Of a DNA stretch of 64,000 nucleotides, positions 1-24,421 are shown one piece after another (positions within the stretch are counted from its first letter, which is position 1; the number at the start of each line of letters is the position of its first letter). Origin of the DNA: Candidatus Latescibacterota bacterium (GTDB taxonomy: Bacteria > Latescibacterota > UBA2968). The notes under the pieces were generated by a model that had not been told where the DNA came from, made no database searches, and worked only from the letters and a program-made list of their open reading frames with translations. The position numbers and the translations under genes are program-made. The stretch is from assembly GCA_965204745.1 (NCBI GenBank), contig OZ242010.1, positions 3,773,389 through 3,837,388 of the forward strand. Reading direction: 5' to 3'.

Positions 1-69
1 CCCACGCACACAAAGCTGTTGTTGCGCTGCACTGCGTTCTCGTATTTTGTCAAAAAGGACATGTACCTC

Positions 70-112
70 TCCACTGATAAAATGGCGGATCCCCCATGGG
101 AATCCGCCATAC
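70..112 (-). terminator. Rho-independent terminator downstream of rnpB
   Basis: Perfect hairpin ATGGCGGATCCCCCATGGGAATCCGCCAT at 82-110, followed on the minus strand by TTTAT. Confidence 0.6.
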
Positions 113-115
113 TGA

Positions 116-490
116 AACAAGCGGGCCTATAAGCCGAGTTCTGTCGTTTGGCGGTTGCCAAACGGATGGTCATTTATCTGGGACGCCTGTTGCCAGACGC
201 CTCGTGCAGCCTACCCGAGCGTGATAGCGAGACGGGCCGCCTCTCCGCTCCTATTCGGCCTTGCTCCAAATGGGGTTTACCGTGCCGCGCTCGTCGCCGA
301 GTCGCGCGGTGGGCTCTTACCCCACCGTTTCACCCTTGCCCGCTGCGCGAATCACCGCGCCCGCTGGCGGTCTGTTCTCTGTGGCACTTTCCATCGGGTC
401 GCCCCGCCTGGGCATTACCCAGCATTTTGCCCTGTGGAGCTCGGACTTTCCTCATCCCAAAAAGGACGCGACCATCCGGCCCGCTTGTGC
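116..490 (-). ncRNA. rnpB: RNase P RNA, bacterial type A (rnpB)
   Basis: Reverse complement of 436-453 reads GAGGAAAGTCCGAGCTCC, followed by CACAGGGCA (P4 5' strand). Reverse complement of 130-144 reads ACAGAACTCGGCTTA (P4 3' strand). The terminal helix pairs CAAGCGGGCC (5') with GGCCCGCTTG (3'). The region carries no credible CDS, and its length of about 375 nt is typical of rnpB. Confidence 0.85.
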
Positions 491-492
491 AT

Positions 493-963
493 CTATTCGT
501 CTCGTTGCCCCGTGGTTGCTTTTTGCCTTCCGTCTATGCCTCGATTTGCCAACTGATCGGCTTTGTCGTTTTGGTCTCGGCGCACGTGTCTGATTTGGAA
601 CAGGTCAAAGGGTTTGCTCTGCATTTGCGCGGTTTGATACAGGGGCAACAGCGCGTTGCTTTTGACCTTGTAGTGCCCGTTCATCTGGCGCACCACGAGT
701 TCGCTGTCCGAAAAAACGGTCACGCGATTGGCGCGCAACTGCGCGGCGAGTTCGAGGCCCTTGATCAAGGCGCGATATTCTGCCGCGTTGTTGGTGGCCT
801 GCCCGATGTACTCGCAGTGCTCGGTCACGAGTTCGCCATCTCGTTCAATGCGAATCCCAATGCCCGCGTGCCCGGGATTGCCCTTGGATGCCCCGTCGAT
901 GAATAGGATGAGATCGTTCAACCCGCGCCCTCGCCTTCTCGCCACGCCAAGATGCGCGCACAA
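493..963 (-). CDS. rnhA: ribonuclease HI
   Basis: Motifs FIDGASKGNPG, TNNAAEYRAL, FSDSELVV and DKADQLA match RNase H type 1. The start may be an internal alternative codon, since the ORF overlaps the upstream gene by 46 nt. Confidence 0.8.
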   Translation of the reverse strand: MCAHLGVARRRGRGLNDLILFIDGASKGNPGHAGIGIRIERDGELVTEHCEYIGQATNNAAEYRALIKGLELAAQLRANRVTVFSDSELVVRQMNGHYKVKSNALLPLYQTAQMQSKPFDLFQIRHVRRDQNDKADQLANRGIDGRQKATTGQRDE

Positions 964-1640
964 TTGTCGCAGCGCAAGATGCTGTTAGCCCGCTTGACTT
1001 CGACCAACCGCTGCGGCGACAACTGCCGGTAACAACCGCCGCAGGCCCCCTTGTGAACTGGCACCACTGCGATCCCGCCCCTGACGACCGTGCGGATGCG
1101 ATTGTACAGGCCCAAGAGTCGGGAATCCACATGGGGTTCGAGGGCGGCGCGCTTCTTTTCCCACCCGCTCACGTTTTTCTCTGTGGAATTGAGGCTAGCC
1201 GTCAACTCGTCAATGCGTTGTTGGCGGTCCTGTTTGATTTCCCGATAGTACTTCTCGTCTTCGCCGAGGTGGGCCGCGATCTCCTCGAGCTGTTCAATGC
1301 TGTCCAAAATCGCGGTTTCGCAGTCGTCCTTGCGATCTTGCAGGGTCGCGATTTCGATTTGCAACGCGTCGTATTCCTTGTTCGTTTTGACCTCGTAGAG
1401 CCGGTCTTGGTGTTTTTTCAGATCGGCTTCAATCGCGCCGAGGTCCAATTCGAGGGCGCGCCGATTTTTTTCGAGTTCTTCGCGGTTTTGCTGTTGCGCG
1501 TCGAGTTGATCGCGTGCGGTTTCCAGTTCGGTTTTCAAGGTGGTGATTTCGTGGGGATAATCGACTTGCGCTTGGTGTAGCGCGTTGATCTCTTTGTCGA
1601 TTTCCTGAATTTTCAGCAAATGGTGCAAACTCTCTCGCAT
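918..1640 (-). CDS. zinc-ribbon domain protein (COG1579/DUF164 family), coiled-coil plus C4 zinc ribbon
   Basis: Long coiled-coil N-terminus and a C-terminal CGGCYRQL...CDNCARIL zinc ribbon. Start chosen at MRESLHHLLKIQ. Confidence 0.75.
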   Translation of the reverse strand: MRESLHHLLKIQEIDKEINALHQAQVDYPHEITTLKTELETARDQLDAQQQNREELEKNRRALELDLGAIEADLKKHQDRLYEVKTNKEYDALQIEIATLQDRKDDCETAILDSIEQLEEIAAHLGEDEKYYREIKQDRQQRIDELTASLNSTEKNVSGWEKKRAALEPHVDSRLLGLYNRIRTVVRGGIAVVPVHKGACGGCYRQLSPQRLVEVKRANSILRCDNCARILAWREGEGAG

Positions 1641-1750
1641 GCGCGTCTCCTTGTAAAAAAAGAAAAGGTGCGACCCTGAACAGGTGCACCTTTCTATGGC
1701 TGTTTTACTGCGCGTCAAACCTCTCGATCTGCTGAGAAGAGGAGGGTAAA

Positions 1751-1827
1751 TGGTGGGCGATACTGGATTTGAACCAGTGACCTCCGGTATGTGAAACCGG
1801 CACTCTAACCAACTGAGCTAATCGCCC
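1751..1827 (-). tRNA. tRNA-Val (anticodon CAC), CCA encoded
   Basis: The reverse complement folds as a cloverleaf: acceptor GGGCGAT/ATCGCCC, anticodon stem CCGGT/ACCGG with loop TTCACAT, T-loop GGTTCAAAT, and a 3' CCA. Confidence 0.9.
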
Positions 1828-2159
1828 AATTTTGCGATGATACCGCCCGAGGCAGTCGCTATTTTTTTTCATGATCAAAAGGGGGACTTGGGGTTTTGCA
1901 AGGAGTTGTAATTAACAAAAGATGCGCGGATATGTCAAGCCCGATGTGCAAAGGCGAAAAGCAACCATCGGCTTTTCGCTCGAAAGAAAGCGCGAGGAGT
2001 TGTGCGATTTGTTCCTTGCACATAGCGACAAACCAAAGTATTTTTCGCGCATCCTGTGAATTGTCTAATTGTTGCATTTGGTGAAACCGCAGGTTAAACT
2101 CAGGCGTCACTACGTCTCGATTGGGCAACGCATCTCAAACTTGGATGAGGGGACACACT

Positions 2160-2978
2160 ATGGAAATCCGGCCCCAGAAACTCAATTTCGCACGCCCTCC
2201 CATAGAGGAGATCGTATTGAGTGTTCTCTTTCAGCCTCTCGAAGGATTCCTCGCGCCACATCTTGGCGAAATATGGCGGGAACTCAAAAAGGAGGGGTTT
2301 GTGAACATCGCCGAACAGCCACCGGTTATTTCCACGATGGAGCATTTTTCGAAGATAGGCGGAGAACCCGAGTTGCATATTGGCAATGTCCCAAATCTCG
2401 CACGAATTTGGTTCATCCACAAAGATGACAACCAAATCATACAAGTGCAACGCGACCGATTTACTTTTAACTGGCGTAAAACCGAGGCAGAGCCGAACTA
2501 TCCTGGATTCTCCGCTATTCTTGAAAAATTTGTGGGGTTCTATAACCGCTTTGGCGAAACCATCCAAAACATGGAAGTCGGCGCACTAACGCCGTTGCAA
2601 TACGAGTTGACCTATATCGATCAACTCATGCGGGGAGAAGGCTGGGATAACTTCGAGGACCTGGGGAAGATTTACAACCTGTTTATGGATACTCAACCAT
2701 CGGATTCATTTTGGTCTGGCGCCGAATCGATGGTGTTGCAGGCATCATTTCCCATCGAGGATTTACACAGCCGATTGTACCTGACCATAGACAATAGGGT
2801 TAGGGTATCTGACCAAAGGCAAACGTTGCAAACCGATTTCACCATGCGCGGTTTTCCACTGAACGCGGAACAGGCAATGCGTGCGTGGTTTAAGTGGGCG
2901 CATGATCGGATCTGTGAAAAATTCGTCCGTATGTTCACGGAAGGCATCCAGACACAAATATGGGAGCGAAAAACATGA
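2160..2978 (+). CDS. hypothetical protein; resembles the TIGR04255-type conserved hypothetical family (from memory, unverified); first gene of a low-GC island
   Basis: ORF preceded by a GAGGGGA RBS. Local GC is about 45-50% against about 60% in the flanks. The stop overlaps the next start (ATGA). Confidence 0.7.
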   Translation: MEIRPQKLNFARPPIEEIVLSVLFQPLEGFLAPHLGEIWRELKKEGFVNIAEQPPVISTMEHFSKIGGEPELHIGNVPNLARIWFIHKDDNQIIQVQRDRFTFNWRKTEAEPNYPGFSAILEKFVGFYNRFGETIQNMEVGALTPLQYELTYIDQLMRGEGWDNFEDLGKIYNLFMDTQPSDSFWSGAESMVLQASFPIEDLHSRLYLTIDNRVRVSDQRQTLQTDFTMRGFPLNAEQAMRAWFKWAHDRICEKFVRMFTEGIQTQIWERKT

Positions 2979-3517
2979 ACGCGCTTAGTCCGTGGCTTCA
3001 AACCCAAGTGGGGAGGAACACCGCGATCAGTCCCTCCGCGCCTCCAAAAATGCCTCACAATGGGTTGCAAACTCAGGAGTACAGGCTTTTCGAGATGGGT
3101 GAGGGGGTTATAGTCGTTGATCGGCATTTCTTTTTTGTCGATGCACAACGGCAAATGGAGGAGATTCGCCAAGAGGCTATGGAAGCCTATCGGGCGAATA
3201 ACGAAATTGATCCTATCCCCGATTCGGCATACGAAGAGACGCTTTCTTTGTTGAAACAAATGCCTCGCAATGTTCCGATGCCCGACATCATGTGGTCTGA
3301 AGACGGAGGGATTGGGTTGGAATGGCGACCAGAGAACGGCATCGTTACGATGAGTTTATACGGGGACAATCATGTCATTTATGGCGCTTTTTTTGGCGAC
3401 AAGCGTGAAGTTGAAGGAATTTGCACATTATCAGACACCGCATTGTTGCAAGGTTTTTTGACAACATTGAGAAATTTTTATGAAAAAAAGGCTCGATATG
3501 AATGTTCCGCCCGATGA
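2975..3517 (+). CDS. hypothetical protein (island gene 2)
   Basis: ATGA start/stop overlap with the upstream gene; low GC; no recognisable domain. Confidence 0.6.
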   Translation: MNALSPWLQTQVGRNTAISPSAPPKMPHNGLQTQEYRLFEMGEGVIVVDRHFFFVDAQRQMEEIRQEAMEAYRANNEIDPIPDSAYEETLSLLKQMPRNVPMPDIMWSEDGGIGLEWRPENGIVTMSLYGDNHVIYGAFFGDKREVEGICTLSDTALLQGFLTTLRNFYEKKARYECSAR

Positions 3518-3884
3518 GAAACTCGCTCGTTTTATTTTTTCCAAAAGCCATTTCTCCATTGTGAACAAGACAGTCAAATTTAAGGCATTCATTCCTCCTT
3601 CAAATAGTGTAGAACTGTCTGTGTATCGCATCTCAACGCTCTCTGACAGCGAGGTGTGGGCAATTGGGCGAAAATACGTCGAAACAGGGGACAGAAGCCT
3701 AAAAGCAAGGGCGGATTTCTCGGCAGATCGAGTTTATGAAAACAATCTCGAAGTCATTCCAGCCACGCAACCCCACGAGCGACATGCCAACATCACGCCG
3801 TTTCCAGCCGATAGGAGAACGCGGGATCGCATCGCGAGAAAACTCGCTCTTTCCAGTAAATTGGTAATCATGCCGACAACGTAA
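3480..3884 (+). CDS. hypothetical protein (island gene 3); alternative start at 3498
   Basis: ORF in very AT-rich DNA (about 40% GC) that overlaps the end of gene 2; no recognisable domain. Confidence 0.55.
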   Translation: MKKRLDMNVPPDEKLARFIFSKSHFSIVNKTVKFKAFIPPSNSVELSVYRISTLSDSEVWAIGRKYVETGDRSLKARADFSADRVYENNLEVIPATQPHERHANITPFPADRRTRDRIARKLALSSKLVIMPTT

Positions 3885-3893
3885 GGAGCATCC

Positions 3894-4274
3894 ATGCAGA
3901 GGGAGACCGAAATGATGGAGCACGCGACCCGACAGGGCAGATTAGACGCGCTGTGCATCCGCGCGGACGAGGGCACGCTGACAAAACAAGAGCGAACCGA
4001 ATTAGACGCCCTCTTTGCGGAACGCGAGGCCGAGGAAGCGGCGGTCTTAAAACCCACGCGAGAAAAGGCGAAAGTGGCATGCGTGCTCGAACTTCTCCGG
4101 CGAGGGGACATCAGTGCTGGCAGAGCCGCAAAACGCCTTCACATTTCCCGTTGGGAACTCACGAGATTGATGGCCGAAGCAGGCATCTCCCCCTTTGACG
4201 ACAGCCTCACCACAACAACCCTCGCGGCTGAAGTCAATCGCGCGTTGCGGGCTTTCGATGAACCCACATCATGA
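3894..4274 (+). CDS. small HTH protein, UPF0175/antitoxin-like C-terminus (copy A1); the ribosomal start may be 3912
   Basis: C-terminal GDISAGRAAKRLHISRWELTRLMAEAGI resembles the UPF0175 helix-turn-helix. The N-terminal 47 aa are nearly identical at nucleotide level to copy A2. Confidence 0.6.
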   Translation: MQRETEMMEHATRQGRLDALCIRADEGTLTKQERTELDALFAEREAEEAAVLKPTREKAKVACVLELLRRGDISAGRAAKRLHISRWELTRLMAEAGISPFDDSLTTTTLAAEVNRALRAFDEPTS

Positions 4275-4401
4275 AAATTGTCGCAAACAGCACGCCGCCA
4301 AAATTTTGTCGCATCTCGAGCATCTGAACAGCGCGGATGGGACAAACCAAAGGAGCATCCATGCAGAGGGATTATTCCGAAGTCAAAGGGCACTTGCGGA
4401 G
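4269..4401 (+). repeat. direct repeat copy 1 (dehydratase leader plus first about 17 codons)
   Basis: About 95% identical to 5236-5390. It contains the RBS AAAGGAGCATCC and ATGCAGAGGGATTATTCCGAAGTCAAAGG. Confidence 0.85.
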
Positions 4402-4419
4402 CCAAGAAAGGAGAACGAA

Positions 4420-4815
4420 ATGATGGAGCACGCGACCCGACAGGGCAGATTAGACGCGCTGTGCATCCGTGCGGCCGAGGGCACGCTGACAAAACAAGAG
4501 CGAACCGAATTAGACGCCCTCTTTGCGGAACGCGATGTAGCTACCCATGAGGAGCACCTGTTATTGGCGGAGATCGAGGCGAACTCGCGCTTGCCCGATC
4601 AAAAACAACATCGCTATTGGTTGTTGCGGCGCAAGTGTGAGGATGAGACGCTGACCGATGCGGAATTGCAAGAGTTGCAATCGTTGAACCATGAGTGGGA
4701 AGCGCGAAATGTAAAGCGCGTCGAAGCCCTCTGCGCCTTAGCCGAACATCGCGGAACGACCCTGCGCGGCGTGATGGCAGAACTCGGCCTCAAAGGATCG
4801 CACCGTGACTTCTGA
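4420..4815 (+). CDS. small HTH protein (copy A2), paralog of A1 with a divergent C-terminus
   Basis: MMEHATRQGRLDALCIRA...; the C-terminal LRGVMAELGL is helix-turn-helix-like. It is preceded by a truncated 20-codon remnant of the dehydratase start (MQRDYSEVKGHLRSQERRTK*). Confidence 0.6.
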   Translation: MMEHATRQGRLDALCIRAAEGTLTKQERTELDALFAERDVATHEEHLLLAEIEANSRLPDQKQHRYWLLRRKCEDETLTDAELQELQSLNHEWEARNVKRVEALCALAEHRGTTLRGVMAELGLKGSHRDF

Positions 4816-5227
4816 CCGCTTGCGGCGTCAGGTGCGCGAGCGTGCAAATGGACTTTGTGAATACTGCCTTTGCCCCGATCATTTGACAAGTGCCCCTTTC
4901 CACTGCGAACATATTCAACCTCGCAACGCTGGCGGTGAAACGGCATTGGATAATCTGGCGTGGTCGTGTCCATCTTGCAATGGCAATAAATACACACAAA
5001 CCCACGCAATCGATCCGAAAACCGGACGCCGCGTGCCACTGTTTCACCCGCGCCGCCAACAGTGGAAACGGCATTTCCAATGGCGTGCGGATTTTATGTA
5101 CATCGTCGGACGAACGCAAACCGGACGTGCCACAGTCAGAGCCTTAAAAATGAATCGCACGACCTTGATAAATTTGAGGCGGATTCTCCACAGGGTAGGA
5201 GCGCATCCGCCAAAAATAACGAGGTGA
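4805..5227 (+). CDS. HNH endonuclease
   Basis: CEYC...HCEHIQPRNAGGETALDNLAWSCPSCNGNK HNH/zinc-finger motif; overlaps the end of A2 by 11 nt. Confidence 0.8.
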   Translation: MTSDRLRRQVRERANGLCEYCLCPDHLTSAPFHCEHIQPRNAGGETALDNLAWSCPSCNGNKYTQTHAIDPKTGRRVPLFHPRRQQWKRHFQWRADFMYIVGRTQTGRATVRALKMNRTTLINLRRILHRVGAHPPKITR

Positions 5228-5235
5228 CCTCGCAC

Positions 5236-5390
5236 CATGAAAATTGTCGCAAACAGCACGCCGCCAAAATTTTTGGGATTGAGTATTTGATCGGAGATCG
5301 CATCTCGAACATCTGAACAGCGCGAATGGGACAAATCAAAGGAGCATCCATGCAGAGGGATTATTCCGAAGTCAAAGGACACTTGCGGAG
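5236..5390 (+). repeat. direct repeat copy 2 (native leader and start of the dehydratase gene)
   Basis: Shares CATGAAAATTGTCGCAAACAGCACGCCGCCAAAATTTT and ...GAACAGCGCG(A/G)ATGGGACAAA(T/C)CAAAGGAGCATCCATGCAGAGGGATTATTCCGAAGTCAAAGG with 4269-4401. Confidence 0.85.
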
Positions 5391-7137
5391 TCAGGAGTGG
5401 TTCGACAACCCGCACAACATGGGCATGACCGCGGTGTATGTGGAACGCTACATGAACTACGGCTGGACGCGCGAAGAGCTCCAATCGGGCAAACCCGTCA
5501 TCGGCATCGCGCAAACAGGCGGGGACCTCACGCCTTGTAATCGCATCCACGTCGAATTGGCGGACCGGGTCAAAGCCGGGATTCGGGACAACGGGGGCAT
5601 CCCCTTTGAATTTCCGGTTCATCCCATTGCCGAGCAGGGCAAACGGCCCACGGCCGCGCTCGACCGCAACCTCGCGTACTTGGGCTTGGTCGAAATCCTA
5701 CACGGCTATCCCATTGACGGCGTGGTGCTCACCACCGGGTGCGATAAAACCACGCCTGCGTGCATCATGGCCGCCTGCACCCTCAACCTGCCCGCAATCG
5801 TGCTTTCGGGCGGCCCCATGCTCGATGGGCACTTTCAAGGGCGTCTGGCCGGATCGGGCACGGTCGTGTGGGAGGCGCGCGAACGCTATGCGGCCGGTGA
5901 AATTGACTACGACGGGTTTATGGACCTCGTCACGTCCTCCTCGCCCAGCTTGGGCCATTGCAACACGATGGGCACGGCCCTGTCCATGAACGCCTTGGCC
6001 GAAGCACTCGGCTTGTCCCTGACGGGTTGTGCGGCCATTCCCGCGCCCTATCGCGCCCGCAAGCAGATGGCGTATCGCACGGGCCTCCGCATCGTGGACA
6101 TGGTCAAAGAAGACCTCACCCCGGCCAAAATTTTGACGCCCAACGCCTTTCAAAACGCCATTGTGGTCAACTCTGCACTCGGGGGATCGACCAATGCGCC
6201 GGTTCACATCACCGCGATTGCGCGGCACATCGGGCACGCGCTTCCGGCAAAAGACTGGCAAATCCATGGTCACCACATCCCTTTGCTCGTCAACTGCCAA
6301 CCCGCGGGCGCCTACTTGGGCGAGGCGTTTTACCGCGCAGGCGGCGTGCCCGCGGTCATGGCCGAACTCGTCAAGGCAGACAAACTCCACACAAACTGCA
6401 TGAGCGTCACGGGCAAAACCATGGGCGAAAACCTCAAAGGCATCGCCATTGAAGACGACCGCGTCATCAAGCCCTACGACCGGCCCCTCAAAGAAAACGC
6501 GGGCTTTATCGTACTCGGCGGCAACCTCTTTGACGCGGGCTTGCTCAAAACCTCGGTGATCGGCGACGACTTTCGCAAAAGGTACCTCCAGCACGAAGGC
6601 GATGAAAACGCCTGGGAGGGCACGGCCGTGGTCTTTGACGGCCCGGAGGATTATCACCACCGCATCAATGACCCCGCGTTGCCCATTGACGAAAATGCCA
6701 TGTTGTTCGTGCGCTATTGCGGGCCTGTGGGCTATCCCGGCTCTGCCGAAGTCGTCAACATGCTCCCGCCTGACCGGCTCGTGCAGGCCGGCATTTCCGA
6801 ATTGCCCTGCATTGGCGACGGGCGTCAAAGCGGCACGTCTGCCAGCCCGTCCATCCTCAATGCGTCGCCCGAAGCCACTGTCGGCGGGGGCCTCGCGTTT
6901 CTCAAAACCGGCGACCGCGTGCGGATCGACCTCAACACCTGCACGGCCGACGTGCTCATCGGCGACGGAGAACTCGCCCGCCGCAAACGAGATTGGAAAC
7001 GACCCGCCCTGACCCACCAAACGCCCTGGCAGGAACTCTACCGCCAAACCGCGGGTCAACTCGCGGACGGCGCGTGCCTTGAGCTGGCCGTCAAATACCA
7101 AAACGTCCGCGACAACACCCCCCGGCACTCGCACTAA
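5350..7137 (+). CDS. IlvD/EDD-family dehydratase (dihydroxy-acid or sugar-acid dehydratase)
   Basis: Conserved TGCDKTTPA, LSGGPM, SPSLGHCNTMGTA and a C-terminal ...GDGRQSGTS; about 595 aa. Confidence 0.9.
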   Translation: MQRDYSEVKGHLRSQEWFDNPHNMGMTAVYVERYMNYGWTREELQSGKPVIGIAQTGGDLTPCNRIHVELADRVKAGIRDNGGIPFEFPVHPIAEQGKRPTAALDRNLAYLGLVEILHGYPIDGVVLTTGCDKTTPACIMAACTLNLPAIVLSGGPMLDGHFQGRLAGSGTVVWEARERYAAGEIDYDGFMDLVTSSSPSLGHCNTMGTALSMNALAEALGLSLTGCAAIPAPYRARKQMAYRTGLRIVDMVKEDLTPAKILTPNAFQNAIVVNSALGGSTNAPVHITAIARHIGHALPAKDWQIHGHHIPLLVNCQPAGAYLGEAFYRAGGVPAVMAELVKADKLHTNCMSVTGKTMGENLKGIAIEDDRVIKPYDRPLKENAGFIVLGGNLFDAGLLKTSVIGDDFRKRYLQHEGDENAWEGTAVVFDGPEDYHHRINDPALPIDENAMLFVRYCGPVGYPGSAEVVNMLPPDRLVQAGISELPCIGDGRQSGTSASPSILNASPEATVGGGLAFLKTGDRVRIDLNTCTADVLIGDGELARRKRDWKRPALTHQTPWQELYRQTAGQLADGACLELAVKYQNVRDNTPRHSH

Positions 7138-8644
7138 AAAAGCGCGAATTGACCAACGCGCTAATTTCAGCATCTGCCCGCGATCCAGACAGGGTTTTGT
7201 GCTGCATCTTTGCGAGTGCCAGCAAATCCAGCCGCTTGAGGATCTGCGCGGTGATCGGGCGTTTGGCATCCCAAAAAATGAACGCCCGCAAAAACTCGCG
7301 CGCGGCTTTTGAATTGAGCAGATCGGCACACAAAACCGCCTCATCCTGGTTTTTGCAGGGCAAAAAATAACACGTATCGTCAACCATTGCGGGTTTGCCA
7401 TCCAAAGGCGGGACGATTGAAAACTGGATCCGCTTGTACAATCCGGAAATCGCCACCTTCCACGCGGCAAAGGAATAATCCCCGACGCCAAAAATGGAAA
7501 ACCGCGGTTTCTTTTTGTACACAGAGCTTTTTCTTTGGTCTAACCTGTCCGCGTGTTTGGTCAAATACGACCACGTCTTGGGCGCGCGCTCCCGAATAAT
7601 GCGGGTGTCATCGCCGACGCCTTTTTGCGTGATCAGGACCCAACGCTCGGGCCTGTTCGTCAACCCCTTTGCCACAGCCGAACTCTTGTACAGCGGGAAC
7701 ACAAACTCGTCCTCGATATCGACCATCTCGCCCAAGCCATTGACCAACGCGCCATCTCTGCGGATAAATTCCATGATTTTCACGCAATCGTGTTTGACGC
7801 CCGACCGCCATGCAACGGGCACCTGCCCATCGAGTTGCGACCACTTTTCGTACTTTTTGAGATCGGCCAAAATTTCCGCATTTTGCATCCCAATCGCAGA
7901 GAGTTTGCGCGCAGTCGAAACGCCGCTGAAAACATCGCACGCCTTGGCCCTAGCGGGCAGGCCCGTCTGACACACCAGCAAGCACGCGGGTGCAGAAACA
8001 TCGAAATGCGCCTTGGCATCCACGGCGTATAACCGGGTATCCGAGATGCAAAAATCCCGCGTCCAAATATGTTTCAACACTTTTCTCGCAACCGTCGTCT
8101 TGCACAGCATCGCCAAGACAGCGCGCCTGTGTTGCAGTTTGTCCAGCAGGTGAATGAGCATCCATTCCGATATGTCGAAGTTGGATTTTCCGGTGATGGC
8201 GTCAAATCCCCTGTGGCCTTGAAAATTATTTTTGCTGGGCAAATTCGATCCCCGAATGCGCCCCAAACCCGAATTGGTCACCCACGGCGGATTGCCGAGC
8301 ACGAGAATGGGTTCGGGCAGATGGGTCAAAATAGTCTCCCAGTCGAGTTGAAAAAAATCCGCATGCCTCAGTTCCACCCGCTCGCGTTCCGCCTGTCCCA
8401 ACTTTTGTTCGAGAACCCGCAGATATGCCCGATTGATCTCGATGCCCAAAAATTTTCGCGCATGCTCAAAAGCGGTCATCGCACGCAAGAGAAACCCCCC
8501 TGTCCCACACGTCGGTTCAACGACACTCTCGGGACGCACGCCCTCGGCAACCAGAAAATGGCATATCTCGTCCGCAAGTTCACTCGGCGTCTGAAAATCG
8601 CCAAACTCCACGACCCGTCTATTTTTTCGATTCTTTGCAGTCAT
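7091..8644 (-). CDS. gamma-class N6-adenine DNA methyltransferase (TaqI/Eco57I-like), apparently solitary
   Basis: N-terminal FGDFQTPSELA (motif X), EPTCGTGGFLL (motif I) and GNPPW (motif IV), plus a roughly 300-aa C-terminal target-recognition region. It converges with and overlaps the dehydratase 3' end by 47 nt. Confidence 0.8.
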   Translation of the reverse strand: MTAKNRKNRRVVEFGDFQTPSELADEICHFLVAEGVRPESVVEPTCGTGGFLLRAMTAFEHARKFLGIEINRAYLRVLEQKLGQAERERVELRHADFFQLDWETILTHLPEPILVLGNPPWVTNSGLGRIRGSNLPSKNNFQGHRGFDAITGKSNFDISEWMLIHLLDKLQHRRAVLAMLCKTTVARKVLKHIWTRDFCISDTRLYAVDAKAHFDVSAPACLLVCQTGLPARAKACDVFSGVSTARKLSAIGMQNAEILADLKKYEKWSQLDGQVPVAWRSGVKHDCVKIMEFIRRDGALVNGLGEMVDIEDEFVFPLYKSSAVAKGLTNRPERWVLITQKGVGDDTRIIRERAPKTWSYLTKHADRLDQRKSSVYKKKPRFSIFGVGDYSFAAWKVAISGLYKRIQFSIVPPLDGKPAMVDDTCYFLPCKNQDEAVLCADLLNSKAAREFLRAFIFWDAKRPITAQILKRLDLLALAKMQHKTLSGSRADAEISALVNSRFFSASAGGCCRGRFGI

Positions 8645-8760
8645 AAAATCTCCAATATCCCCGTAGAGTGTGAACTAGAGGGTCGCAATCCAGTGCTGAG
8701 CCTGTGCCGCTTTCTTTTGTGTCTTCTGTGTTTTTTGTGGCAATTTCATTTTTTTACTCC

Positions 8761-9441
8761 ATGATACTCCCGACTTCCGAAGAATATACCGTCCTCATCC
8801 TCTCGCTCGAGGTGGGCGTGTTGTGCGTGGTGATCAGCTTGCCGTTTGCGGTCTTGTTGGGGTGGGTGTTGGCGCGCAAGAATTTTCGCGGCAAGCTCCT
8901 CCTCGACGGCTTGTGTCATCTGCCGCTCGTGTTGCCGCCCGTCGTGGTGGGCTATTTGCTCCTCTTGGTATTGGGGCGGCGCGGGTTTTTGGGCCAACTA
9001 TTGAACGACTGGTTTGGCGTGCAAATCGCCTTTACGTGGCGCGGCGCGGTCCTCGCGGCGGCCGTGGTGGGGTTTCCGCTCATGTTGCGGGCCGTGCGCT
9101 TGGCGATTGAAAGCGTCGATCCCCGGCTTGAACGCGCAGCGCGCACCCTCGGCGCCAATCCGTTTCGCGCCTTTGTGTCCATCACCCTGCGCTTGGCCGC
9201 GCCGGGCGTGCTCGTGGGATGCCTCTTGGCATTTGCCCGCAGCTTGGGCGAATTTGGCGCCACCATCACCTTTGTCTCCAACATCGCCGGCGAAACCCGC
9301 ACCCTCCCGCTCGCCATTTTCACGTACATCAACCAGCCCGATGGCGAAGCCGCAGCGACGCGCTTGGTCGTCCTCTCCATCATCCTCTCCCTAGGCGCGC
9401 TCATCGGTAGCGAGGCCATCGCAAAAAAAATGAAACCGTAA
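8761..9441 (+). CDS. modB: molybdate ABC transporter permease
   Basis: ABC permease EAA-like region and ModB-like sequence; about 226 aa; start chosen at MILPTSEE. Confidence 0.8.
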   Translation: MILPTSEEYTVLILSLEVGVLCVVISLPFAVLLGWVLARKNFRGKLLLDGLCHLPLVLPPVVVGYLLLLVLGRRGFLGQLLNDWFGVQIAFTWRGAVLAAAVVGFPLMLRAVRLAIESVDPRLERAARTLGANPFRAFVSITLRLAAPGVLVGCLLAFARSLGEFGATITFVSNIAGETRTLPLAIFTYINQPDGEAAATRLVVLSIILSLGALIGSEAIAKKMKP

Positions 9442-9444
9442 GCC

Positions 9445-10197
9445 ATGCTCACCTTGCGCGTACACAAACAACTCGCTGAATTTGTCCTCGAAGTCGATGT
9501 GACGTGCGCTTGTCCGGTCACGGCGATATTCGGGCCATCGGGCGCGGGCAAGACCGCGATCCTCAATCTCGTCAGCGGCTTGATGCGCCCAGACAGCGGC
9601 GAAATCGCCTTGGATGGCGTCCCCATCTTCCACGCGGAAAAGGGTGTTGACCTGCCCCCGGAACAGCGGCGAATCGGCCATGTGTTTCAAGACGACCTGC
9701 TCTTTCCCCACTTGAGCGCGCGCCAAAACCTCGCGTATGGCTACCAATTTCTCGCCCCATCAGAACGCAAATTTCACCCCGATGCCATCGCGGACCTGCT
9801 CGAATTAACCGCCTTGCTCGACCGGAAGCCCGCGAGCCTTTCGGGCGGTGAACGCCAGCGAGTCGCGCTCGGGCGCGCCATCCTGACCTCGCCCAAGTTG
9901 CTCCTTTTGGACGAACCCTTGGCCGCGCTCGACCGGGAACTCAAAGATCGCATCATGCCCTATTTGCGCCACATTCGCACGGACTTGGGCATCCCCATGC
10001 TCTACGTGAGCCACGCGGTCGGGGAAATCCTGCAACTCACCGAGCGAGTCATCGTACTCAACCGCGGGCGAGTGCTCGCGCACGGCGCCTTCTCTTCTGT
10101 CGCGCACCAACCCCAAATCCTCCCCTTGCTCAAAGCACACGGGTTTGAGGGGAATGGCCGAAAAAATTTCCCTCAAAGTGCATCCAAAGACGGGTAA
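9445..10197 (+). CDS. modC: ABC transporter ATP-binding protein (ModC-like, lacks a TOBE domain)
   Basis: Walker A GPSGAGKT, signature LSGGERQRVALGRA, Walker B LLLLDEP. Confidence 0.8.
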   Translation: MLTLRVHKQLAEFVLEVDVTCACPVTAIFGPSGAGKTAILNLVSGLMRPDSGEIALDGVPIFHAEKGVDLPPEQRRIGHVFQDDLLFPHLSARQNLAYGYQFLAPSERKFHPDAIADLLELTALLDRKPASLSGGERQRVALGRAILTSPKLLLLDEPLAALDRELKDRIMPYLRHIRTDLGIPMLYVSHAVGEILQLTERVIVLNRGRVLAHGAFSSVAHQPQILPLLKAHGFEGNGRKNFPQSASKDG

Positions 10198-11672: not shown

Positions 11673-12007
11673 CATTAGATTGAGAGGCGATATGTTTTTC
11701 GCGTTCAAACCCGCAGCCGCCCGCCGCGATCCGGTCAACGCATTGCGTTGCGAATGAGCACGAGAATTTTCCCTGTTGACAGAACCGGGGAAACCGCGAT
11801 ATTAGCGGCCCGCAATCAACCCCATCGCCCCACCACTCGGGGCCGGGTGGCGGGGCGGACTGACAACTGACAACCGACAACTGACAACGGCGTTGTTGCA
11901 TAAATAGCAATTTCCTGCAAGTTGGGATAGCAAAAAGACAGGCTCCTTCGTAGATTGGGCATATAGATCACCAAACACCACTCACCCTTTCTCACCAGGA
12001 ACCTGTC

Positions 12008-14999: not shown

Positions 15000-16270
15000 A
15001 AGGGTTAATTAGGAGTTGCGCCCTCGTATCGAGATAAGCCATCTTGATGCCCGGCTCGGGGAAGGCCGGCCCCTCTTGAAGGCGATGACCTTGTAGGTAA
15101 GATAGGCCCCCCGACCGCCGGGTCTATGCCGAAGAGTATCTAAGCCCCTTGAGGCTGCATATACAAGACCGGTAGACTTGGCGTCAATGGTCGGGACGCG
15201 ACCCCGAGCGCGCACCAGATCCCTTACAACCCCCTCATCACAGGAGGCCCCCATGTCGAAATCTCACCCCGCTTTTGCCGGCATTGATGTCAGTGCCCGC
15301 ACGTTGTCCGTTGCCCTGTCCAGACCCGGACAAGCTGTCATGCAAGCGACCTTTGCCAATGATCCCCAAGCGCATAAGCGGTTGCTGAAGTGGCTCACGA
15401 AGGGCGGGCACATGGTCTCTGTGTGCCTCGAAGCGACCGGGCTTTACAGTTTGGGGGTGGCCTTGGCCTTGCATCGGCATCGCCACACAAAGGTCATGGT
15501 CGTCAATCCCAAAGCGATGAGCAAGTACGCCCAAGCCTGCATGCAACGGGCGAAGACGGATGCGAAGGATGCGTTGTTGATCCTCGACTATGCCGAGCGC
15601 ATGCCTTTTGTGCCTTGGCAAGCGCCGAGCGAGCAACGGCTTCAACTGCAAGCCCTCACCAGACGCATTGACCAACTCAAGCAGGAGATCATCCGCGAAC
15701 AGAGCCGCAACCACGCGCAGAGCTACCACATCCGCAGCACACGTCTCATCGCACGCGATATTCAGGTGAATATTCGACACTTCAAACGCCGGATTGCATA
15801 CTTGGAAAGCCAAGCCCTCGATCTCGTTTTGCACGATGAGCCCCTCAAGCGTGCCTACCAACGCCTCTGCTCGACGCCTGGCATCGCGCAAACGAGTGCC
15901 TTGCGGCTCTTGGCCGAGTTGACCCTTTTGCCAGAGGAGATGCAACCGCCCCAGTGGGTCGCACATGCAGGCCTGGATCCCAAACCCAAACAATCCGGAA
16001 CCGCCAATCCACAAAGACGCATCTCGAAAACCGGGAATAAGTACCTCCGCCATGCCCTCTATATGCCTGCCTGGGTGGCCATCAGACACGAAGGCCATGT
16101 CAAAGCCTTCTATGACCAACTCATCGCCCGCGGCAAGAAACCTTTGCAGGCTATCGTTGCGGTGATGCGAAAGTTGCTCCATTCGATCTGGGGCATGTTG
16201 CGCCATGACCAAGATTTTGAGGGCGAAAAATTCTATCGAATCACCCCGAAAACCCCTTGACCTTTTAAGA
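15000..16270 (+). mobile_element. IS110-family insertion sequence (boundaries approximate)
   Basis: Single DEDD transposase gene flanked by microsatellites: (CCTTTTGTG)3 upstream and (GCCTCTT)5 downstream. Confidence 0.5.
15253..16260 (+). CDS. IS110-family transposase
   Basis: N-terminal FAGIDVS...CLEATG DEDD domain and a C-terminal YLRHALYMPAWVAI region; RBS CAGGAGG. Confidence 0.9.
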   Translation: MSKSHPAFAGIDVSARTLSVALSRPGQAVMQATFANDPQAHKRLLKWLTKGGHMVSVCLEATGLYSLGVALALHRHRHTKVMVVNPKAMSKYAQACMQRAKTDAKDALLILDYAERMPFVPWQAPSEQRLQLQALTRRIDQLKQEIIREQSRNHAQSYHIRSTRLIARDIQVNIRHFKRRIAYLESQALDLVLHDEPLKRAYQRLCSTPGIAQTSALRLLAELTLLPEEMQPPQWVAHAGLDPKPKQSGTANPQRRISKTGNKYLRHALYMPAWVAIRHEGHVKAFYDQLIARGKKPLQAIVAVMRKLLHSIWGMLRHDQDFEGEKFYRITPKTP

Positions 16271-19275: not shown

Positions 19276-19620
19276 TAGGTTGTGTTGACATTTTATTATT
19301 TTCTGACGTTCCACACAGATTAGCAAATGTGTTGCTTGCTCATTTAAGGCGTTTCCTTTGATGGCTTCTCGCTCTGGTTGCTCTGATGGCGTTGCGCGAG
19401 GGGACCTATCCCCCGGCCCCTTTCCTACGAGGAAAGGGGAGTAAAGCTCCTTTGATGGCTTATCTCAAGGGTTGCTCTGATGGCGTGGCGCGAGGGCATA
19501 AAGCGATTAAATATCCCTCATCAATACCCTCGCAAAACCTCTCGCCATTTCCCCTTCCTCGCAGGCACAGGCGTAGCCTACAACGAAGCGTAGCGAGTAA
19601 CGGGGCTAGGGGGTAGGTCC
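19276..19620 (+). repeat. composite repeat: IS-end-like sequence plus a MITE with GGACCTA(T/C)CCCC terminal inverted repeats
   Basis: TAGGTTGTGTTGACATTTTATT...TGTGTTGCTTGCTCATTTAAGGCGTTT recurs at 27781, 33720 (rc) and 55210 (rc). The internal hairpin CCCCTTTCCTACGAGGAAAGGGG recurs at more than 10 sites. Confidence 0.8.
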
Positions 19621-24230: not shown

Positions 24231-24421
24231 AAGCCTGTTCCCTGACCGCCACAGATGAAGATGGCGATGGCAATGTGAATTTCGCCGACTTCTTGACCTT
24301 TGCGGATAAGTTCGGCTCGCGGCTCGGACAGGAGCGATATGACGCCCGGTGCGATGGCGATGGTCAAATTGACTCTGCCGATTTCTTCATCTTCGCCGAT
24401 AACTTTGGTTCGACAGGCTGA
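24227..24421 (+). CDS. stand-alone dockerin-like minigene (two Ca-binding repeats), start overlapping the stop of the upstream gene
   Basis: DEDGDGNVNFADFLTFADKFG and DGDGQIDSADFFIFADNFG dockerin type-I-like repeats; ATGA start/stop overlap; paralog at 43801-44001. Confidence 0.6.
   Translation: MKACSLTATDEDGDGNVNFADFLTFADKFGSRLGQERYDARCDGDGQIDSADFFIFADNFGSTG

What the first reader, a model, noticed from the sequence alone, without database searches (positions are those of the whole stretch)
3886..5390. Dehydratase 5' end duplicated three times: direct repeats bracket a paralogous HTH gene and an HNH endonuclease
The string AAGGAGCATCCATGCAGAGGGA (RBS plus the first codons of the IlvD/EDD gene) occurs at 3886, 4359 and 5338. 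A longer ~150-bp repeat (4269-4401 vs 5236-5390, about 95% identical) flanks a 965-bp segment holding small gene A2 and an HNH endonuclease. Upstream of A2 lies a 20-codon decapitated copy of the dehydratase start (MQRDYSEVKGHLRSQERRTK*). A1 and A2 share a nucleotide-identical first 47 codons but have unrelated C-terminal HTH halves. Together this points to recent recombination or cassette insertion at the dehydratase start, possibly mobilised by the HNH nuclease (homing-like), generating chimeric antitoxin-like genes.
Basis: seen in the sequence. Interest (0 to 1): 0.65.

Follow-up and report, generated by a model that had tools for sequence, protein, structure and literature searches.

The report
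Recombination scars beside a dehydratase gene
Three copies of a sugar-acid dehydratase gene's start signal are leftovers of local duplication and deletion in a fast-changing patch of toxin-antitoxin-like genes in an uncultured Latescibacterota bacterium; the pattern is real and instructive, but it is an ordinary kind of rearrangement, not a nuclease-driven mobile element.

Summary
The 22-mer (ribosome-binding site plus first codons of the dehydratase) occurs at 3883, 4350 and 5339. A 149/172-nt repeat (4259-4407 vs 5225-5396, 94%) brackets A2 and the HNH gene. A1 and A2 share 126 nt at 98%.

It is not an assembly artefact. Five other assemblies span all three copies, including a 5.28-Mb chromosome and two long-read contigs.

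Nineteen relatives outside this clade have one copy. Two of them, about 91% identical, show the unduplicated order: A2-HNH-UPF0175-(DUF3368 remnant)-spacer-dehydratase.

A1 is a chimera of the A2 N-terminus and a UPF0175 antitoxin, whose DUF3368 PIN-like toxin is intact in one sister strain. A2-HNH is a conserved two-gene module. A2 has at least 2,200 50%-identity clusters and no Pfam or NCBIfam model. Elsewhere the module has no flanking repeats.

Best reading: unequal or illegitimate recombination joined dehydratase codon 16 to the A2 ribosome-binding site. That made tandem units, each ending in a healing copy of the dehydratase start. Deletions and gene conversion then trimmed them. The exact order of events is unresolved, and import of an allele from a co-resident strain remains possible. 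HNH homing is not supported. Interest is modest.

The parts
1751..1827 (-). tRNA-Val(CAC). It is the conserved left anchor of the variable islet, which spans about 1950-5338.
   Evidence: ARAGORN and Rfam. Homology to relatives stops at about 1947-2208 and resumes at about 5338. GC drops to 0.43-0.57 inside the islet versus 0.59-0.64 in the flanks.
3480..3884 (+). ORF X (134 aa, or 128 aa from the ATG at 3498). Unknown function. It is the last islet gene before the repeats, and its TAA abuts copy 1.
   Evidence: no family hit. Present in L001, L081, L083, L085 and L092-L095.
3883..3904 (+). Copy 1 of the dehydratase ribosome-binding site plus ATGCAGAGGGA (segment 'a'). Here it is fused in frame to A1. 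The 49-nt spacer 'i' upstream and the 41 nt downstream ('b' plus junction) are deleted.
   Evidence: Sister haplotypes L083, L085, L092, L094 and L095 keep the spacer. Junction: ATGCAGAGGGA|GA(A/C)CGAAATG, with GGA microhomology relative to copy 2.
3894..4274 (+). A1, a chimeric gene. It has 6 codons from the dehydratase start, then the A2 N-terminal module, then a UPF0175 antitoxin domain (residues about 46-126). An alternative start lies at 3912.
   Evidence: Pfam UPF0175 at residues 56-102. PADLOC PDC-S70. UPF0175 genes in relatives match only residues 57-125. The N-part matches A2 family members.
3902..4027 (+). N1, copy 1 of the A2 5' module (A2 ribosome-binding-site remnant plus 39 codons).
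   Evidence: 98% identical to 4410-4535. 87% identical to the single A2 5' end of L081.
4259..4407 (+). Repeat R. It comprises the last 12 nt of UPF0175, a 37-nt remnant of the DUF3368 toxin gene (4271-4307), spacer 'i', and copy 2 of the dehydratase ribosome-binding site with its first 16 codons (4350-4407).
   Evidence: In L083 the intact 167-aa DUF3368 gene sits at this place.
4361..4423 (+). A 20-codon leader ORF: the decapitated dehydratase start reading into the A2 ribosome-binding site. Its TGA overlaps the A2 ATG.
   Evidence: Read from the sequence. Conserved in L083, L092-L096.
4420..4815 (+). A2 (131 aa), first gene of the conserved A2-HNH module. All-alpha protein from a family with no curated model.
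   Evidence: dN/dS is 0.28 versus L081.
4805..5227 (+). Small HNH (His-Me finger) nuclease, 140 aa, GTG start, overlapping A2 by 11 nt. Its stop codon lies in the leftover 3' end of a deleted UPF0175 gene.
   Evidence: PF01844 at 3.5e-12. Homologues. dN/dS is 0.24. Comparison with L081.
5225..5396 (+). Repeat R'. It comprises a UPF0175 3' remnant, the DUF3368 5' remnant (5237-5273), 23 extra nt 'x' (5274-5297), spacer 'i', and copy 3 of the ribosome-binding site with 16 codons (5339-5396), which is the working start of the dehydratase.
   Evidence: It is orthologous to the single copy in L081, L084 and L001, with the same toxin-deletion junction.
5350..7137 (+). IlvD/EDD-family dehydratase (595 aa, NF009560 type). 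It is intact and forms the conserved right anchor of the islet.
   Evidence: 91-94% aa identity to 17 Latescibacterota MAGs.

Best explanation
The three copies are scars of non-allelic (unequal, partly illegitimate) recombination. They lie at the right edge of a hypervariable toxin-antitoxin/defence islet between tRNA-Val and a dehydratase gene in a Latescibacterota lineage.

**Shown**
- The ancestral single-copy order, still seen in relatives, was A2 - HNH - UPF0175 - (DUF3368 toxin or its remnant) - spacer - dehydratase.
- In the window clade a novel junction joins dehydratase codon 16 to the ribosome-binding site of A2 (AAGGAGAACG).

**Inferred**
1. This junction arose by unequal exchange between sister or homologous copies. 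That produced head-to-tail units of the form [A2 5' end ... spacer - dehydratase RBS - 16 codons].
2. Each unit ends with a copy of the dehydratase start, so the real gene stays intact and every unit is headed by that start signal.
3. Once direct repeats existed, ordinary homologous unequal crossover changed the unit number. This explains the third copy with the identical A2-side breakpoint.
4. Microhomology deletions and gene conversion then trimmed the units:
   - The upstream unit lost the A2 C-terminal part, HNH and the first codons of UPF0175. That produced the in-frame chimera A1.
   - A 41-nt deletion between GGA repeats put the dehydratase ATG in frame with A1.
   - The downstream unit lost UPF0175.
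   - The DUF3368 toxin was lost in most strains.

**Functional consequences (inferred)**
- A1 is translated from a borrowed dehydratase start.
- A2-HNH is preceded by a 20-codon leader whose stop overlaps the A2 start.
- The dehydratase is unaffected.
- The HNH protein is the putative effector or toxin of a conserved A2-HNH pair, not the agent of the rearrangement.
For: **The repeats are real and beyond chance:**

**Not an artefact.** The same tandem order is colinear with the window in:
- L093, a 5.28-Mb chromosome: 98.9% over 6.4 kb with 1 gap.
- L094 and L085, long-read contigs.
- L092 and L083, short-read scaffolds from other samples.
- L095 and L096, partially.

**Polarity of the change**
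- The dehydratase start is single-copy in all 19 relatives outside the clade.
- The A2 5' module is single-copy and native to A2 in L081 and L084, and in full-length family members.
- UPF0175 genes in relatives lack that module.
- L081 and L084 give the unduplicated order A2-HNH-UPF0175-remnant-spacer-dehydratase.

**Junctions**
- Both junctions upstream of the A2 module have the same right breakpoint, at the A2 ribosome-binding site as seen in L084.
- Copy 1 equals copy 2 minus 41 nt between GGA repeats.
- R' shares its toxin-deletion junction with L081 and L001, so it is the orthologous copy.

**Copies are close to one another.** In most haplotypes all three copies share bases that differ from L081/L001, for example AATGGGAC versus TTGGAC. 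They differ from each other at only 1-3 positions. This fits origin within the lineage, or homogenisation.

**The array still varies**
- The spacer in copy 1 is present or absent between strains.
- The toxin is intact in one strain and deleted in the others.
- A 580-bp contig (L097) shows an extra c2-type unit with HNH deleted.

**Precedent for mechanism**
- Tandem duplication by unequal crossover between repeats (PMC3784515).
- Evolutionary units spanning one gene's 3' end, the spacer and the next gene's 5' end (PMC2568036).
Against: - The exact path is not resolved.
- The leftmost copy needs either a third unit followed by deletion of almost all of it, or a starting allele that already had X directly next to the spacer.
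- L083 has an intact DUF3368 gene in unit 1, yet the toxin deletion in R' is shared with L081 and L001 and so looks older than the duplication.
- The UPF0175 part of A1 has higher synonymous divergence from L081 (dS 0.42) than the dehydratase does (0.23). This rests on only 70 codons.
- In L083, copy 1 carries two L081/L001-type bases.
- The last 25 nt of gene X are mosaic between L001 and L081. This shows that alleles of this islet are exchanged between strains.
- No strong microhomology is visible at the codon-16/RBS junction.
- Expression consequences are untested. No sigma-70-like promoter was predicted in 3400-5500.
Confidence: 0.55

Rival explanations
1. Allele capture from a co-resident strain. 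An 'empty' allele (X - spacer - dehydratase, as in L001) took up DNA from a strain carrying the full module. The right end recombined homologously in the dehydratase. The left end joined illegitimately after codon 16, either by homology-facilitated illegitimate recombination or by Campbell-type integration of a looped-out circle. The incoming block therefore brought its own spacer and dehydratase start. Unequal crossover between the resulting repeats then doubled the block, and deletions followed. This differs from the best explanation only in the first step (import versus intrachromosomal exchange).
For: - Copy 1 abuts the TAA of X at exactly the nucleotide where the empty allele of L001 does.
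- In L083, copy 1 keeps L001/L081-type bases, while copies 2 and 3 share other bases.
- The intact DUF3368 in L083, and the raised dS of the UPF0175 part, suggest that unit 1 holds an allele of different ancestry.
- The mosaic 3' end of X shows inter-strain allelic exchange at this locus.
- L097 has terminal overlap compatible with a circle or an extra unit.
- The same model was proposed for orphan immunity-gene arrays (PMC5361080).
Against: - In most haplotypes copy 1 is as similar to copies 2 and 3 as they are to each other.
- The UPF0175 divergence follows the species pattern within error.
- No intermediate haplotype (two copies of the start, one A2 module) was found.
- No integrase or transposase lies in the islet.
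- According to the authors of PMC5361080, illegitimate joins of this type are orders of magnitude rarer than homologous exchange.
Confidence: 0.3
2. HNH homing. The HNH nuclease cuts the dehydratase start in genomes that lack the cassette. Repair then copies the A2-HNH cassette, with its flanking repeat, into the break.
For: - The HNH catalytic motif and zinc knuckles are intact.
- The gene is bracketed by direct repeats.
- Presence/absence polymorphism of A2-HNH exists among relatives.
Against: - A2-HNH occupies the same islet in L081 and L084 with a single dehydratase start and no bracketing repeats.
- A2-HNH modules in other taxa sit tightly between unrelated housekeeping genes without flanking repeats.
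- In 25 of 31 metagenome loci the HNH gene follows A2 directly. In four of the other six the contig ends within 200 nt of A2. Both genes are under purifying selection, as expected for a cellular two-gene module.
- The repeat also heads A1, which has no nuclease.
- Homing by break repair does not create duplications of the target.
Confidence: 0.03
3. Assembly artefact: two strain variants of the islet were chained through shared sequence.
For: - The L083 scaffold has a 100-N gap inside the second A2 5' module, so short reads do struggle here.
- Many strain variants co-exist.
Against: - The order is reproduced in a 5.28-Mb chromosome contig, in two long-read contigs, and in scaffolds from other samples. 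It carries copy-specific fixed differences, for example AAACC in copy 2 versus AAATC in copy 3.
- The codon-16/RBS junction is a sequence that exists in neither parental context.
Confidence: 0.01

Closest known systems
UPF0175 (PF03683, COG2886) / DUF3368 (PF11848, COG2405) PIN-like toxin-antitoxin pair; PADLOC candidate PDC-S70
   Same: - The C-terminal two thirds of A1 are UPF0175.
- In sister strain L083 an intact DUF3368 gene follows it with an ATGA overlap.
- Relatives L004, L007 and L012 carry the pair directly upstream of the dehydratase.
(the pairing is described in PMC5499597)
   Different: - In the window the toxin is reduced to a 37-nt remnant, present twice.
- The antitoxin carries a foreign 39-codon N-terminal module and a start codon borrowed from the dehydratase.
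Tandem segmental duplication by unequal crossover, followed by differential loss (merodiploid formation; Johnston et al. 2013, PMC3784515)
   Same: - Head-to-tail units.
- One novel junction, repeated.
- Single copy in outgroups.
- Unit number and content still vary between strains.
   Different: - The scale is about 0.5-1 kb rather than 100-900 kb.
- The founding junction is illegitimate rather than between pre-existing repeats.
- The units have been trimmed into complementary halves.
Arrays of orphan immunity or toxin-tip modules at T6SS, Rhs and CDI loci, built by displacement via homology-facilitated illegitimate recombination (Kirchberger et al. 2017, PMC5361080)
   Same: - Accretion of conflict-system modules next to a conserved anchor.
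- Repeated fragments of the anchor mark successive events.
   Different: - The repeated anchor here is the 5' end of an unrelated metabolic gene, not part of the toxin gene.
- There is no secretion system.
- Only two units are present.
S. aureus lpl cluster: an evolutionary unit spanning one ORF's 3' part, the spacer and the next ORF's 5' part (Tsuru and Kobayashi 2008, PMC2568036)
   Same: The repeated unit crosses gene boundaries: it holds the end of one gene, the spacer and the start of the next. Recombination within it shuffles gene halves.
   Different: The genes joined here are unrelated to each other, not paralogues.
Free-standing HNH homing endonucleases of phages (T4 Mob proteins, I-HmuI)
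   Same: A small HNH protein encoded in a variable insert.
   Different: - No phage, intron or intein context.
- It has an obligate upstream partner gene.
- No evidence of target-site specificity.
- Its occurrence is independent of the repeats.
Integrative elements whose attachment site restores the end of the target gene
   Same: Direct repeats contain a gene end, so the interrupted gene stays functional.
   Different: - No integrase.
- The insert is only 1-1.5 kb.
- The repeats are 94% identical over about 150 nt rather than having a short identical core.
- The insertion points differ (after codon 3 in copy 1, after codon 16 in copy 2).
Septu PtuB-type HNH effectors
   Same: Weak profile similarity of the HNH protein to PtuB models.
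   Different: - No PtuA ATPase gene is adjacent.
- Scores are far below NCBIfam cut-offs.
- The protein is shorter (140 aa versus about 215 aa).

Membership tests
Tandem segmental duplication | Head-to-tail units that share one novel junction | tested here: met
   The junctions a|N (3904/3905) and b|N (4407/4408) share the same right breakpoint, at the A2 ribosome-binding site AAGGAGAACG seen in L084. Copy 1 equals copy 2 minus 41 nt.
Tandem segmental duplication | Single copy of the repeated segments in outgroups | tested here: met
   All 19 relatives outside the clade have one dehydratase start within +/-7 kb. L081 and L084 have one A2 5' module.
Tandem segmental duplication | Repeated segments coalesce within the lineage rather than being imported | tested here: inconclusive
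   Most copies share clade-specific bases. Three results point the other way: copy 1 of L083, the intact toxin of L083, and the dS of the UPF0175 part.
UPF0175/DUF3368 type II toxin-antitoxin pair | UPF0175 domain protein | tested here: met
   A1 residues 56-102 match PF03683 at 28.8 bits (cut-off 27.9). PDC-S70 at 1.8e-15.
UPF0175/DUF3368 type II toxin-antitoxin pair | Adjacent downstream DUF3368 (COG2405) PIN-like gene | tested here: not met
   In the window only a 37-nt remnant remains (4271-4307, with a second copy at 5237-5273). The gene is intact (167 aa, PDC-S70 at 8e-49) in sister strain L083.
UPF0175/DUF3368 type II toxin-antitoxin pair | Toxin is toxic and is neutralised by the antitoxin | not testable with these tools
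   Needs expression assays.
HNH homing endonuclease cassette | HNH (His-Me finger) catalytic domain | tested here: met
   PF01844 at 3.5e-12; CxxC...H...N...CxxC motif present.
HNH homing endonuclease cassette | Cassette present or absent at one precise site, with otherwise collinear flanks, as a unit defined by the nuclease | tested here: not met
   A2-HNH is present in L081 and L084 without the repeats. The empty allele L001 also lacks UPF0175. Other A2-HNH loci have no flanking repeats.
HNH homing endonuclease cassette | Nuclease cleaves the unoccupied target | not testable with these tools
   Needs biochemistry.
Site-specific integrative element | Integrase or recombinase gene in or next to the insert | tested here: not met
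   Pfam and NCBIfam scans of the islet's main ORFs found no recombinase; the rest of the 1-9500 ORF list was only read by eye.
Site-specific integrative element | Direct repeats at both ends that contain the target gene end | tested here: met
   R and R'. However, the insertion points differ between copy 1 and copy 2, and identity is 94% over about 150 nt.
Two-gene toxin-antitoxin-like module (A2-HNH) | Conserved adjacency and same-strand order, usually with overlapping or closely spaced genes | tested here: met
   Overlap of 11 nt in the window. HNH lies directly downstream in 25 of 31 metagenome loci. In four of the other six the contig ends within 200 nt of A2. HNH also follows A2 directly in L086-L091.
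Two-gene toxin-antitoxin-like module (A2-HNH) | Scattered, context-independent distribution | tested here: met
   Found between GlnRS and GluRS genes in one lineage, next to DUF5069 and protease genes in another, and in the tRNA-Val islet here.
Two-gene toxin-antitoxin-like module (A2-HNH) | Nuclease toxicity, and neutralisation by the partner | not testable with these tools
   Needs expression assays. A2 has no model in Pfam or NCBIfam, no PDB sequence match and no fold match.
Septu (PtuA/PtuB) | PtuA ATPase gene adjacent to the PtuB HNH gene | tested here: not met
   No ATPase in the islet. The PtuB equivalog scores 20.6 bits against a cut-off of 150.

The most novel reading that the evidence does not exclude
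The spacer plus dehydratase-start repeat might work as a landing pad for integrase-less gene cassettes. Under this reading, blocks that end in a healing copy of the host gene's 5' end loop out by recombination between the repeats. They pass between co-resident symbiont strains and re-insert by homologous (Campbell-type) recombination, perhaps stimulated by breaks made by the HNH nuclease. Conflict-system genes would then accrete in arrays that all borrow the host gene's translation start. The circular-looking 580-bp contig L097 and the strain-to-strain variation in unit content are compatible with this reading but do not demonstrate it.
Probability: 0.08. Interest if true: 0.6.

Novelty: new member of a known kind. 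Interest (0 to 1): 0.3.

Why it matters
1. It is a clean, multi-haplotype snapshot of how antitoxin genes are rebuilt. One deletion inside a tandem duplicate fused the N-terminal module of one small regulator-like protein (A2) to a UPF0175 antitoxin. The chimera's protein cluster has 26 member sequences, on contigs from many assemblies, with or without its PIN-like toxin.
2. It shows how a rearrangement can overrun the start of a housekeeping-type gene and still be tolerated, because the duplicated unit carries a spare copy of that start. The spare starts are then co-opted to translate the new genes.
3. It draws attention to the A2-HNH pair. This is a widespread two-gene module whose first protein belongs to a family of at least 2,200 50%-identity clusters, with no curated model and no structural relative. 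It is a reasonable candidate for a nuclease toxin/antitoxin or defence pair.

None of this requires a new mechanism.

Tried and rejected
**Searches that found nothing**
- Exact-protein look-ups for the window's HNH, dehydratase and A1.
- Exact DNA scan of JGI metagenomes with the 29-nt dehydratase start.
- Rfam at E<=1 on 1500-5800: only the tRNA. No riboswitch or leader RNA explains the repeat.
- Sigma-70 promoter scan of 3400-5500: none. The idea that the spacer is a duplicated promoter has no support.
- For A2: Pfam, NCBIfam, PADLOC, a PDB profile search and Foldseek gave no meaningful hit.

**Ideas considered and dropped**
- *Integron-like or integrase-driven cassette:* dropped because there is no recombinase and the insertion points are inconsistent.
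- *Copy 1 is foreign:* I first read two bases in L083 this way. More haplotypes showed that copy 1 is usually like copies 2 and 3.
- *The UPF0175 part of A1 is not orthologous to that of L081* (81.6% overall identity): its core is 85% identical and its divergence tracks the species pattern within error.
- *AACGC microhomology at the A2/UPF0175 fusion point* (about 4020-4028): this remains tentative, because the next roughly 30 nt are too diverged to align.
Full report
**1. Observation**

- The 22-mer AAGGAGCATCCATGCAGAGGGA occurs three times, at 3883, 4350 and 5339. It occurred in none of 100 shuffles.
- Copies 2 and 3 lie inside a longer direct repeat, 4259-4407 vs 5225-5396. It is 94% identical, and the second copy carries 23 extra nt.
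- A separate 126-nt repeat (3902-4027 vs 4410-4535, 98%) forms the 5' ends of two small genes: A1 (3894-4274) and A2 (4420-4815).
- A 37-nt string, ATGAAAATTGTCGCAAACAGCACGCCGCCAAAATTTT, is also present twice, at 4271 and 5237.
The shared part is 39 A2 codons at 98%, not 47 identical codons. Otherwise the description holds.

I name the segments as follows:

| Name | Segment |
|---|---|
| a | dehydratase ribosome-binding site plus ATGCAGAGGGA |
| b | the next 36 nt (dehydratase codons 4-16) |
| i | about 50 nt of spacer upstream of a |
| N | the shared A1/A2 5' module |
| U | the UPF0175 part |
| t | the 37-nt string |
| x | 23 nt present only in the second long repeat |

The window reads: X - a - N - U - t - i - a - b - N - A2C - HNH - t - x - i - a - b - dehydratase.

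**2. The genes**

- The dehydratase (5350-7137) is a full-length IlvD/EDD enzyme of the NF009560 type.
- The C-terminal part of A1 is UPF0175 (PF03683; PADLOC candidate system PDC-S70).
- The 140-aa protein at 4805-5227 is an HNH nuclease with a GTG start. It overlaps A2 by 11 nt.
- A2 matches no Pfam, NCBIfam or PADLOC model.
  - Its AlphaFold model is confident (pLDDT 89.5) and consists of five helices.
  - It has no meaningful match in the PDB by sequence or by fold.
  - So 'HTH half' is not supported for A2.
- String t is the first 12 codons of a DUF3368 PIN-like toxin gene (see section 4).
- UPF0175 is reported to occur exclusively next to COG2405/DUF3368 as a predicted toxin-antitoxin pair (PMC5499597).

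**3. Where it sits**

- A dehydratase-based scan of one genome per species returned 17 Latescibacterota MAGs with 91-94% identical protein.
- Homology to the window runs from RNase H, the Zn-ribbon gene and tRNA-Val (1751-1827) to about 1950. It resumes exactly at the dehydratase ribosome-binding site.
- Everything in between differs from genome to genome:
  - an almost empty site of about 170 nt in L015;
  - UPF0175-DUF3368 pairs abutting the ribosome-binding site in L004, L007 and L012;
  - a UPF0175 gene alone in L003;
  - other genes elsewhere.
- G+C is lower in this stretch.
- The region is therefore a hypervariable islet of toxin-antitoxin and defence-type genes. Its right border lies immediately upstream of the dehydratase ribosome-binding site.
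- All 19 relatives outside the window's own clade carry a single copy of the dehydratase start.

**4. Close haplotypes**

Protein look-ups led to strain-level relatives.

*(a) Same tandem order as the window (97-99% nt identity)*

| Locus | Type | Note |
|---|---|---|
| L093 | 5.28-Mb chromosome contig | collinear over 6.4 kb with one gap |
| L094 | long-read contig | |
| L085 | noisy long-read contig | |
| L092 | short-read scaffold, other sample | |
| L083 | short-read scaffold, other sample | |
| L095, L096 | partial | |

This excludes an assembly artefact. These haplotypes differ in informative ways:
- L083 carries an intact 167-aa DUF3368 gene where the window has t.
- L083, L085, L092, L094 and L095 keep spacer i in front of copy 1. 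The window and L093 have lost 49 nt there.

*(b) Relatives at about 91% nt identity*
- L081 and L084 show the unduplicated order A2 - HNH - UPF0175 (96 aa, with its own N-terminus) - t - x - i - a - b - dehydratase. They have one a/b and one N.
- L001 lacks A2, HNH and UPF0175 altogether: X - x - i - a - b.

**5. What is derived**

- *a/b is native to the dehydratase.* It is conserved at the gene's start in all relatives.
- *N is native to A2.* Full-length members of the A2 family align from residue 2, and L081/L084 have it only on A2.
- *Normal UPF0175 genes lack N.* Those of relatives match only A1 residues 57-125.
- *A1 is therefore a chimera.* It consists of:
  - six codons from the dehydratase start;
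  - 39 codons of A2;
  - UPF0175.

  N and U stand in the same order and orientation as in L081 (A2 ... UPF0175). An in-frame deletion of about 0.74 kb inside one unit would therefore produce it. A possible AACGC microhomology at the fusion point is tentative.
- *The junction in front of A2 (4407/4408) is new.* It joins dehydratase codon 16 to AAGGAGAACG, which is A2's own ribosome-binding site as seen in L084.
- *The junction in front of A1 has the identical right breakpoint.* It equals the A2 junction minus 41 nt lying between two GGA triplets. This deletion puts the dehydratase ATG in frame with A1.
- *Downstream of HNH only about 12-16 nt of UPF0175 remain.* They supply the HNH stop codon.
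- *The second long repeat is the orthologue of the single copy in relatives.* It shares its t-x junction with L081 and L001.

**6. Mechanism**

The simplest account is as follows.
1. An unequal exchange joined codon 16 of the dehydratase to the A2 ribosome-binding site. This made tandem units that each end in i-a-b.
2. The duplication therefore heals the dehydratase it overran.
3. Further homologous unequal crossover between the new repeats changed the unit number.
4. Small deletions and gene conversion then trimmed the units into complementary halves.

Supporting points:
- In most haplotypes all three copies share bases not found in L081/L001, and they differ from one another at only 1-3 positions. 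This is consistent with origin inside the lineage, or with homogenisation.
- Rearrangement may continue. The 580-bp contig L097 joins HNH position 4847 to spacer i and then runs into another copy-2-type junction. That implies an additional unit, or a circle, lacking HNH.
- Comparable processes are documented: tandem duplication by unequal crossover (PMC3784515), and repeat units that span gene boundaries (PMC2568036).

**7. What this account does not settle**

- The leftmost copy needs an extra step.
- The intact toxin in L083 is hard to derive from an ancestor that already had the t-x deletion.
- The UPF0175 part shows dS 0.42 against L081, versus 0.23 for the dehydratase, on 70 codons.
- Copy 1 of L083 keeps two L081/L001-type bases.
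- The last 25 nt of gene X are identical between L001 and the window clade but differ at 7 positions in L081, even though L001 and L081 are otherwise identical there. This shows allelic exchange between strains at this locus.

The main rival is therefore allele capture. An 'empty' allele took in a block from another strain, with homologous pairing in the dehydratase and an illegitimate join after codon 16. Unequal crossover followed. A similar model was proposed for orphan immunity arrays (PMC5361080). I rate intrachromosomal duplication at about 0.55 and capture at about 0.3. Together, 'local recombination scar' is close to 0.9.

**8. The HNH homing idea**

It is not supported.
- A2-HNH is in the same islet in L081 and L084 without any repeat.
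- In other organisms the pair is wedged between unrelated genes, for example the GlnRS and GluRS genes, with no flanking repeats.
- Of 31 metagenome loci with an A2 homologue, 25 have the HNH gene directly downstream on the same strand. Four of the other six end within 200 nt of A2.
- Both genes evolve under purifying selection: dN/dS is 0.28 for A2 and 0.24 for HNH.
- The A2 family is large: 2,205 clusters at 50% identity with E<=1e-3. It has no curated model.
- The pair therefore looks like a stable two-gene module, most plausibly a nuclease kept in check by its partner. That function is an inference and is untested.

**9. Likely consequences (inferred)**

- A1 can be translated from the borrowed dehydratase start (3894) or from A2's own start (3912).
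- A2 keeps its own ribosome-binding site. It is also preceded by a 20-codon leader whose TGA overlaps its ATG, an arrangement compatible with translational coupling.
- The dehydratase is intact.
- No promoter-like or RNA element was detected in the repeat.
- The A1 protein cluster has 26 member sequences, several on the same contigs as A2. The few differences among haplotypes give no clear selection signal.

**10. Verdict**

- The feature is real and recent, and it is well explained by known recombination processes in a toxin-antitoxin hot spot.
- It is a new example of a known kind.
- Its value lies in the unusually complete series of intermediate and sister haplotypes, in the natural chimeric antitoxin, and in the uncharacterised A2-HNH module.

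Noticed in passing
window 4420-5227; loci L086-L091, L098-L126: A2-HNH is a conserved two-gene module. A2 is about 130 aa and all-alpha; the HNH protein is about 140 aa; the genes overlap or are closely spaced. It occurs in many unrelated contexts and habitats. The A2 family has 2,205 50%-identity clusters at E<=1e-3, no Pfam or NCBIfam model, and no PDB fold match.
   Followed up: partly
L097 (580-bp contig, ERZ23495693), equivalent to window 4354-4847 joined to about 4322-4408: This contig has a 55-nt terminal overlap. HNH is deleted after 43 nt (junction GAGCGTGCA|ATCTGAAC), and both ends are copy-2-type junctions. It may be an extra tandem unit, a small circle, or a de Bruijn graph artefact.
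   Followed up: partly
window 7091-8644 (-): A type II DNA methyltransferase (PADLOC MTase_II, 5e-177) lies immediately downstream of the dehydratase, overlapping its 3' end. It is itself a variable insert: present in the window clade, L001, L002, L015 and L081, but absent in L003-L014, where window 7138 joins 8751. No cognate restriction gene was looked for.
   Followed up: no
L001 6890-6916 vs L081 5475-5501 vs window 3860-3884: The last 25 nt or so of gene X are mosaic. L001 matches the window clade there, but it is otherwise identical to L081, which differs at 7 positions. This marks an allelic recombination breakpoint at the left edge of the A2-HNH block.
   Followed up: partly
L015 6881-6920: The nearly empty site of L015 holds a 37-nt stretch that is 78% identical to the last 37 nt of the HNH gene, directly followed by a degenerate spacer. 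This may be a relic of an older A2-HNH occupancy. The similarity is weak and was not tested against chance.
   Followed up: partly
window 2121-3517: Other islet genes were not characterised further. They are a TIGR04255-family protein (2121-2978) and a 185-aa ORF with weak similarity to PADLOC candidate PDC-M32A (2960-3517). Both are variably present among relatives; a TIGR04255 3' remnant abuts the dehydratase ribosome-binding site in L002.
   Followed up: no
window 4805: In the window clade the HNH gene starts with GTG (ATG in L081). The gene calls stored for L083, L085 and L092-L094 omit it, although the frame is intact. Annotation pipelines probably miss this gene.
   Followed up: partly
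window 114-487 (-): Bacterial RNase P RNA class A (307 bits). It overlaps several spurious long ORFs in the mechanical ORF list.
   Followed up: no
window 11839-11888, 34590-34639, 35849-36063, 42171-42241, 61645-61715: Runs of the heptamer CTGACAA (or its complement TTGTCAG) lie next to a G-rich motif at five places in the window. This is a dispersed microsatellite-like element of unknown role.
   Followed up: no
window 21893-24363 vs 43865-46270; 23685-24224; 24553-24836; 46724-47614: A large inverted repeat of about 2.4 kb (91-96% identical) contains internal tandem repeats of 180, 142 and 297 nt. These probably represent two paralogous repeat-domain genes in opposite orientation.
   Followed up: no
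window 19353-19464, 27861-27972, 43239-43383; 28033-28111, 43651-43729, 50082-50160; 15597-15641 / 38885-38929: Several dispersed short repeats are present. One family is 50-110 nt long. Another is a 79-nt element with the hairpin CCCCCCTTCCTCGCAGGAAGGGGGG, which looks REP- or MITE-like. There is also one perfect 45-nt inverted repeat with arms 23 kb apart.
   Followed up: no
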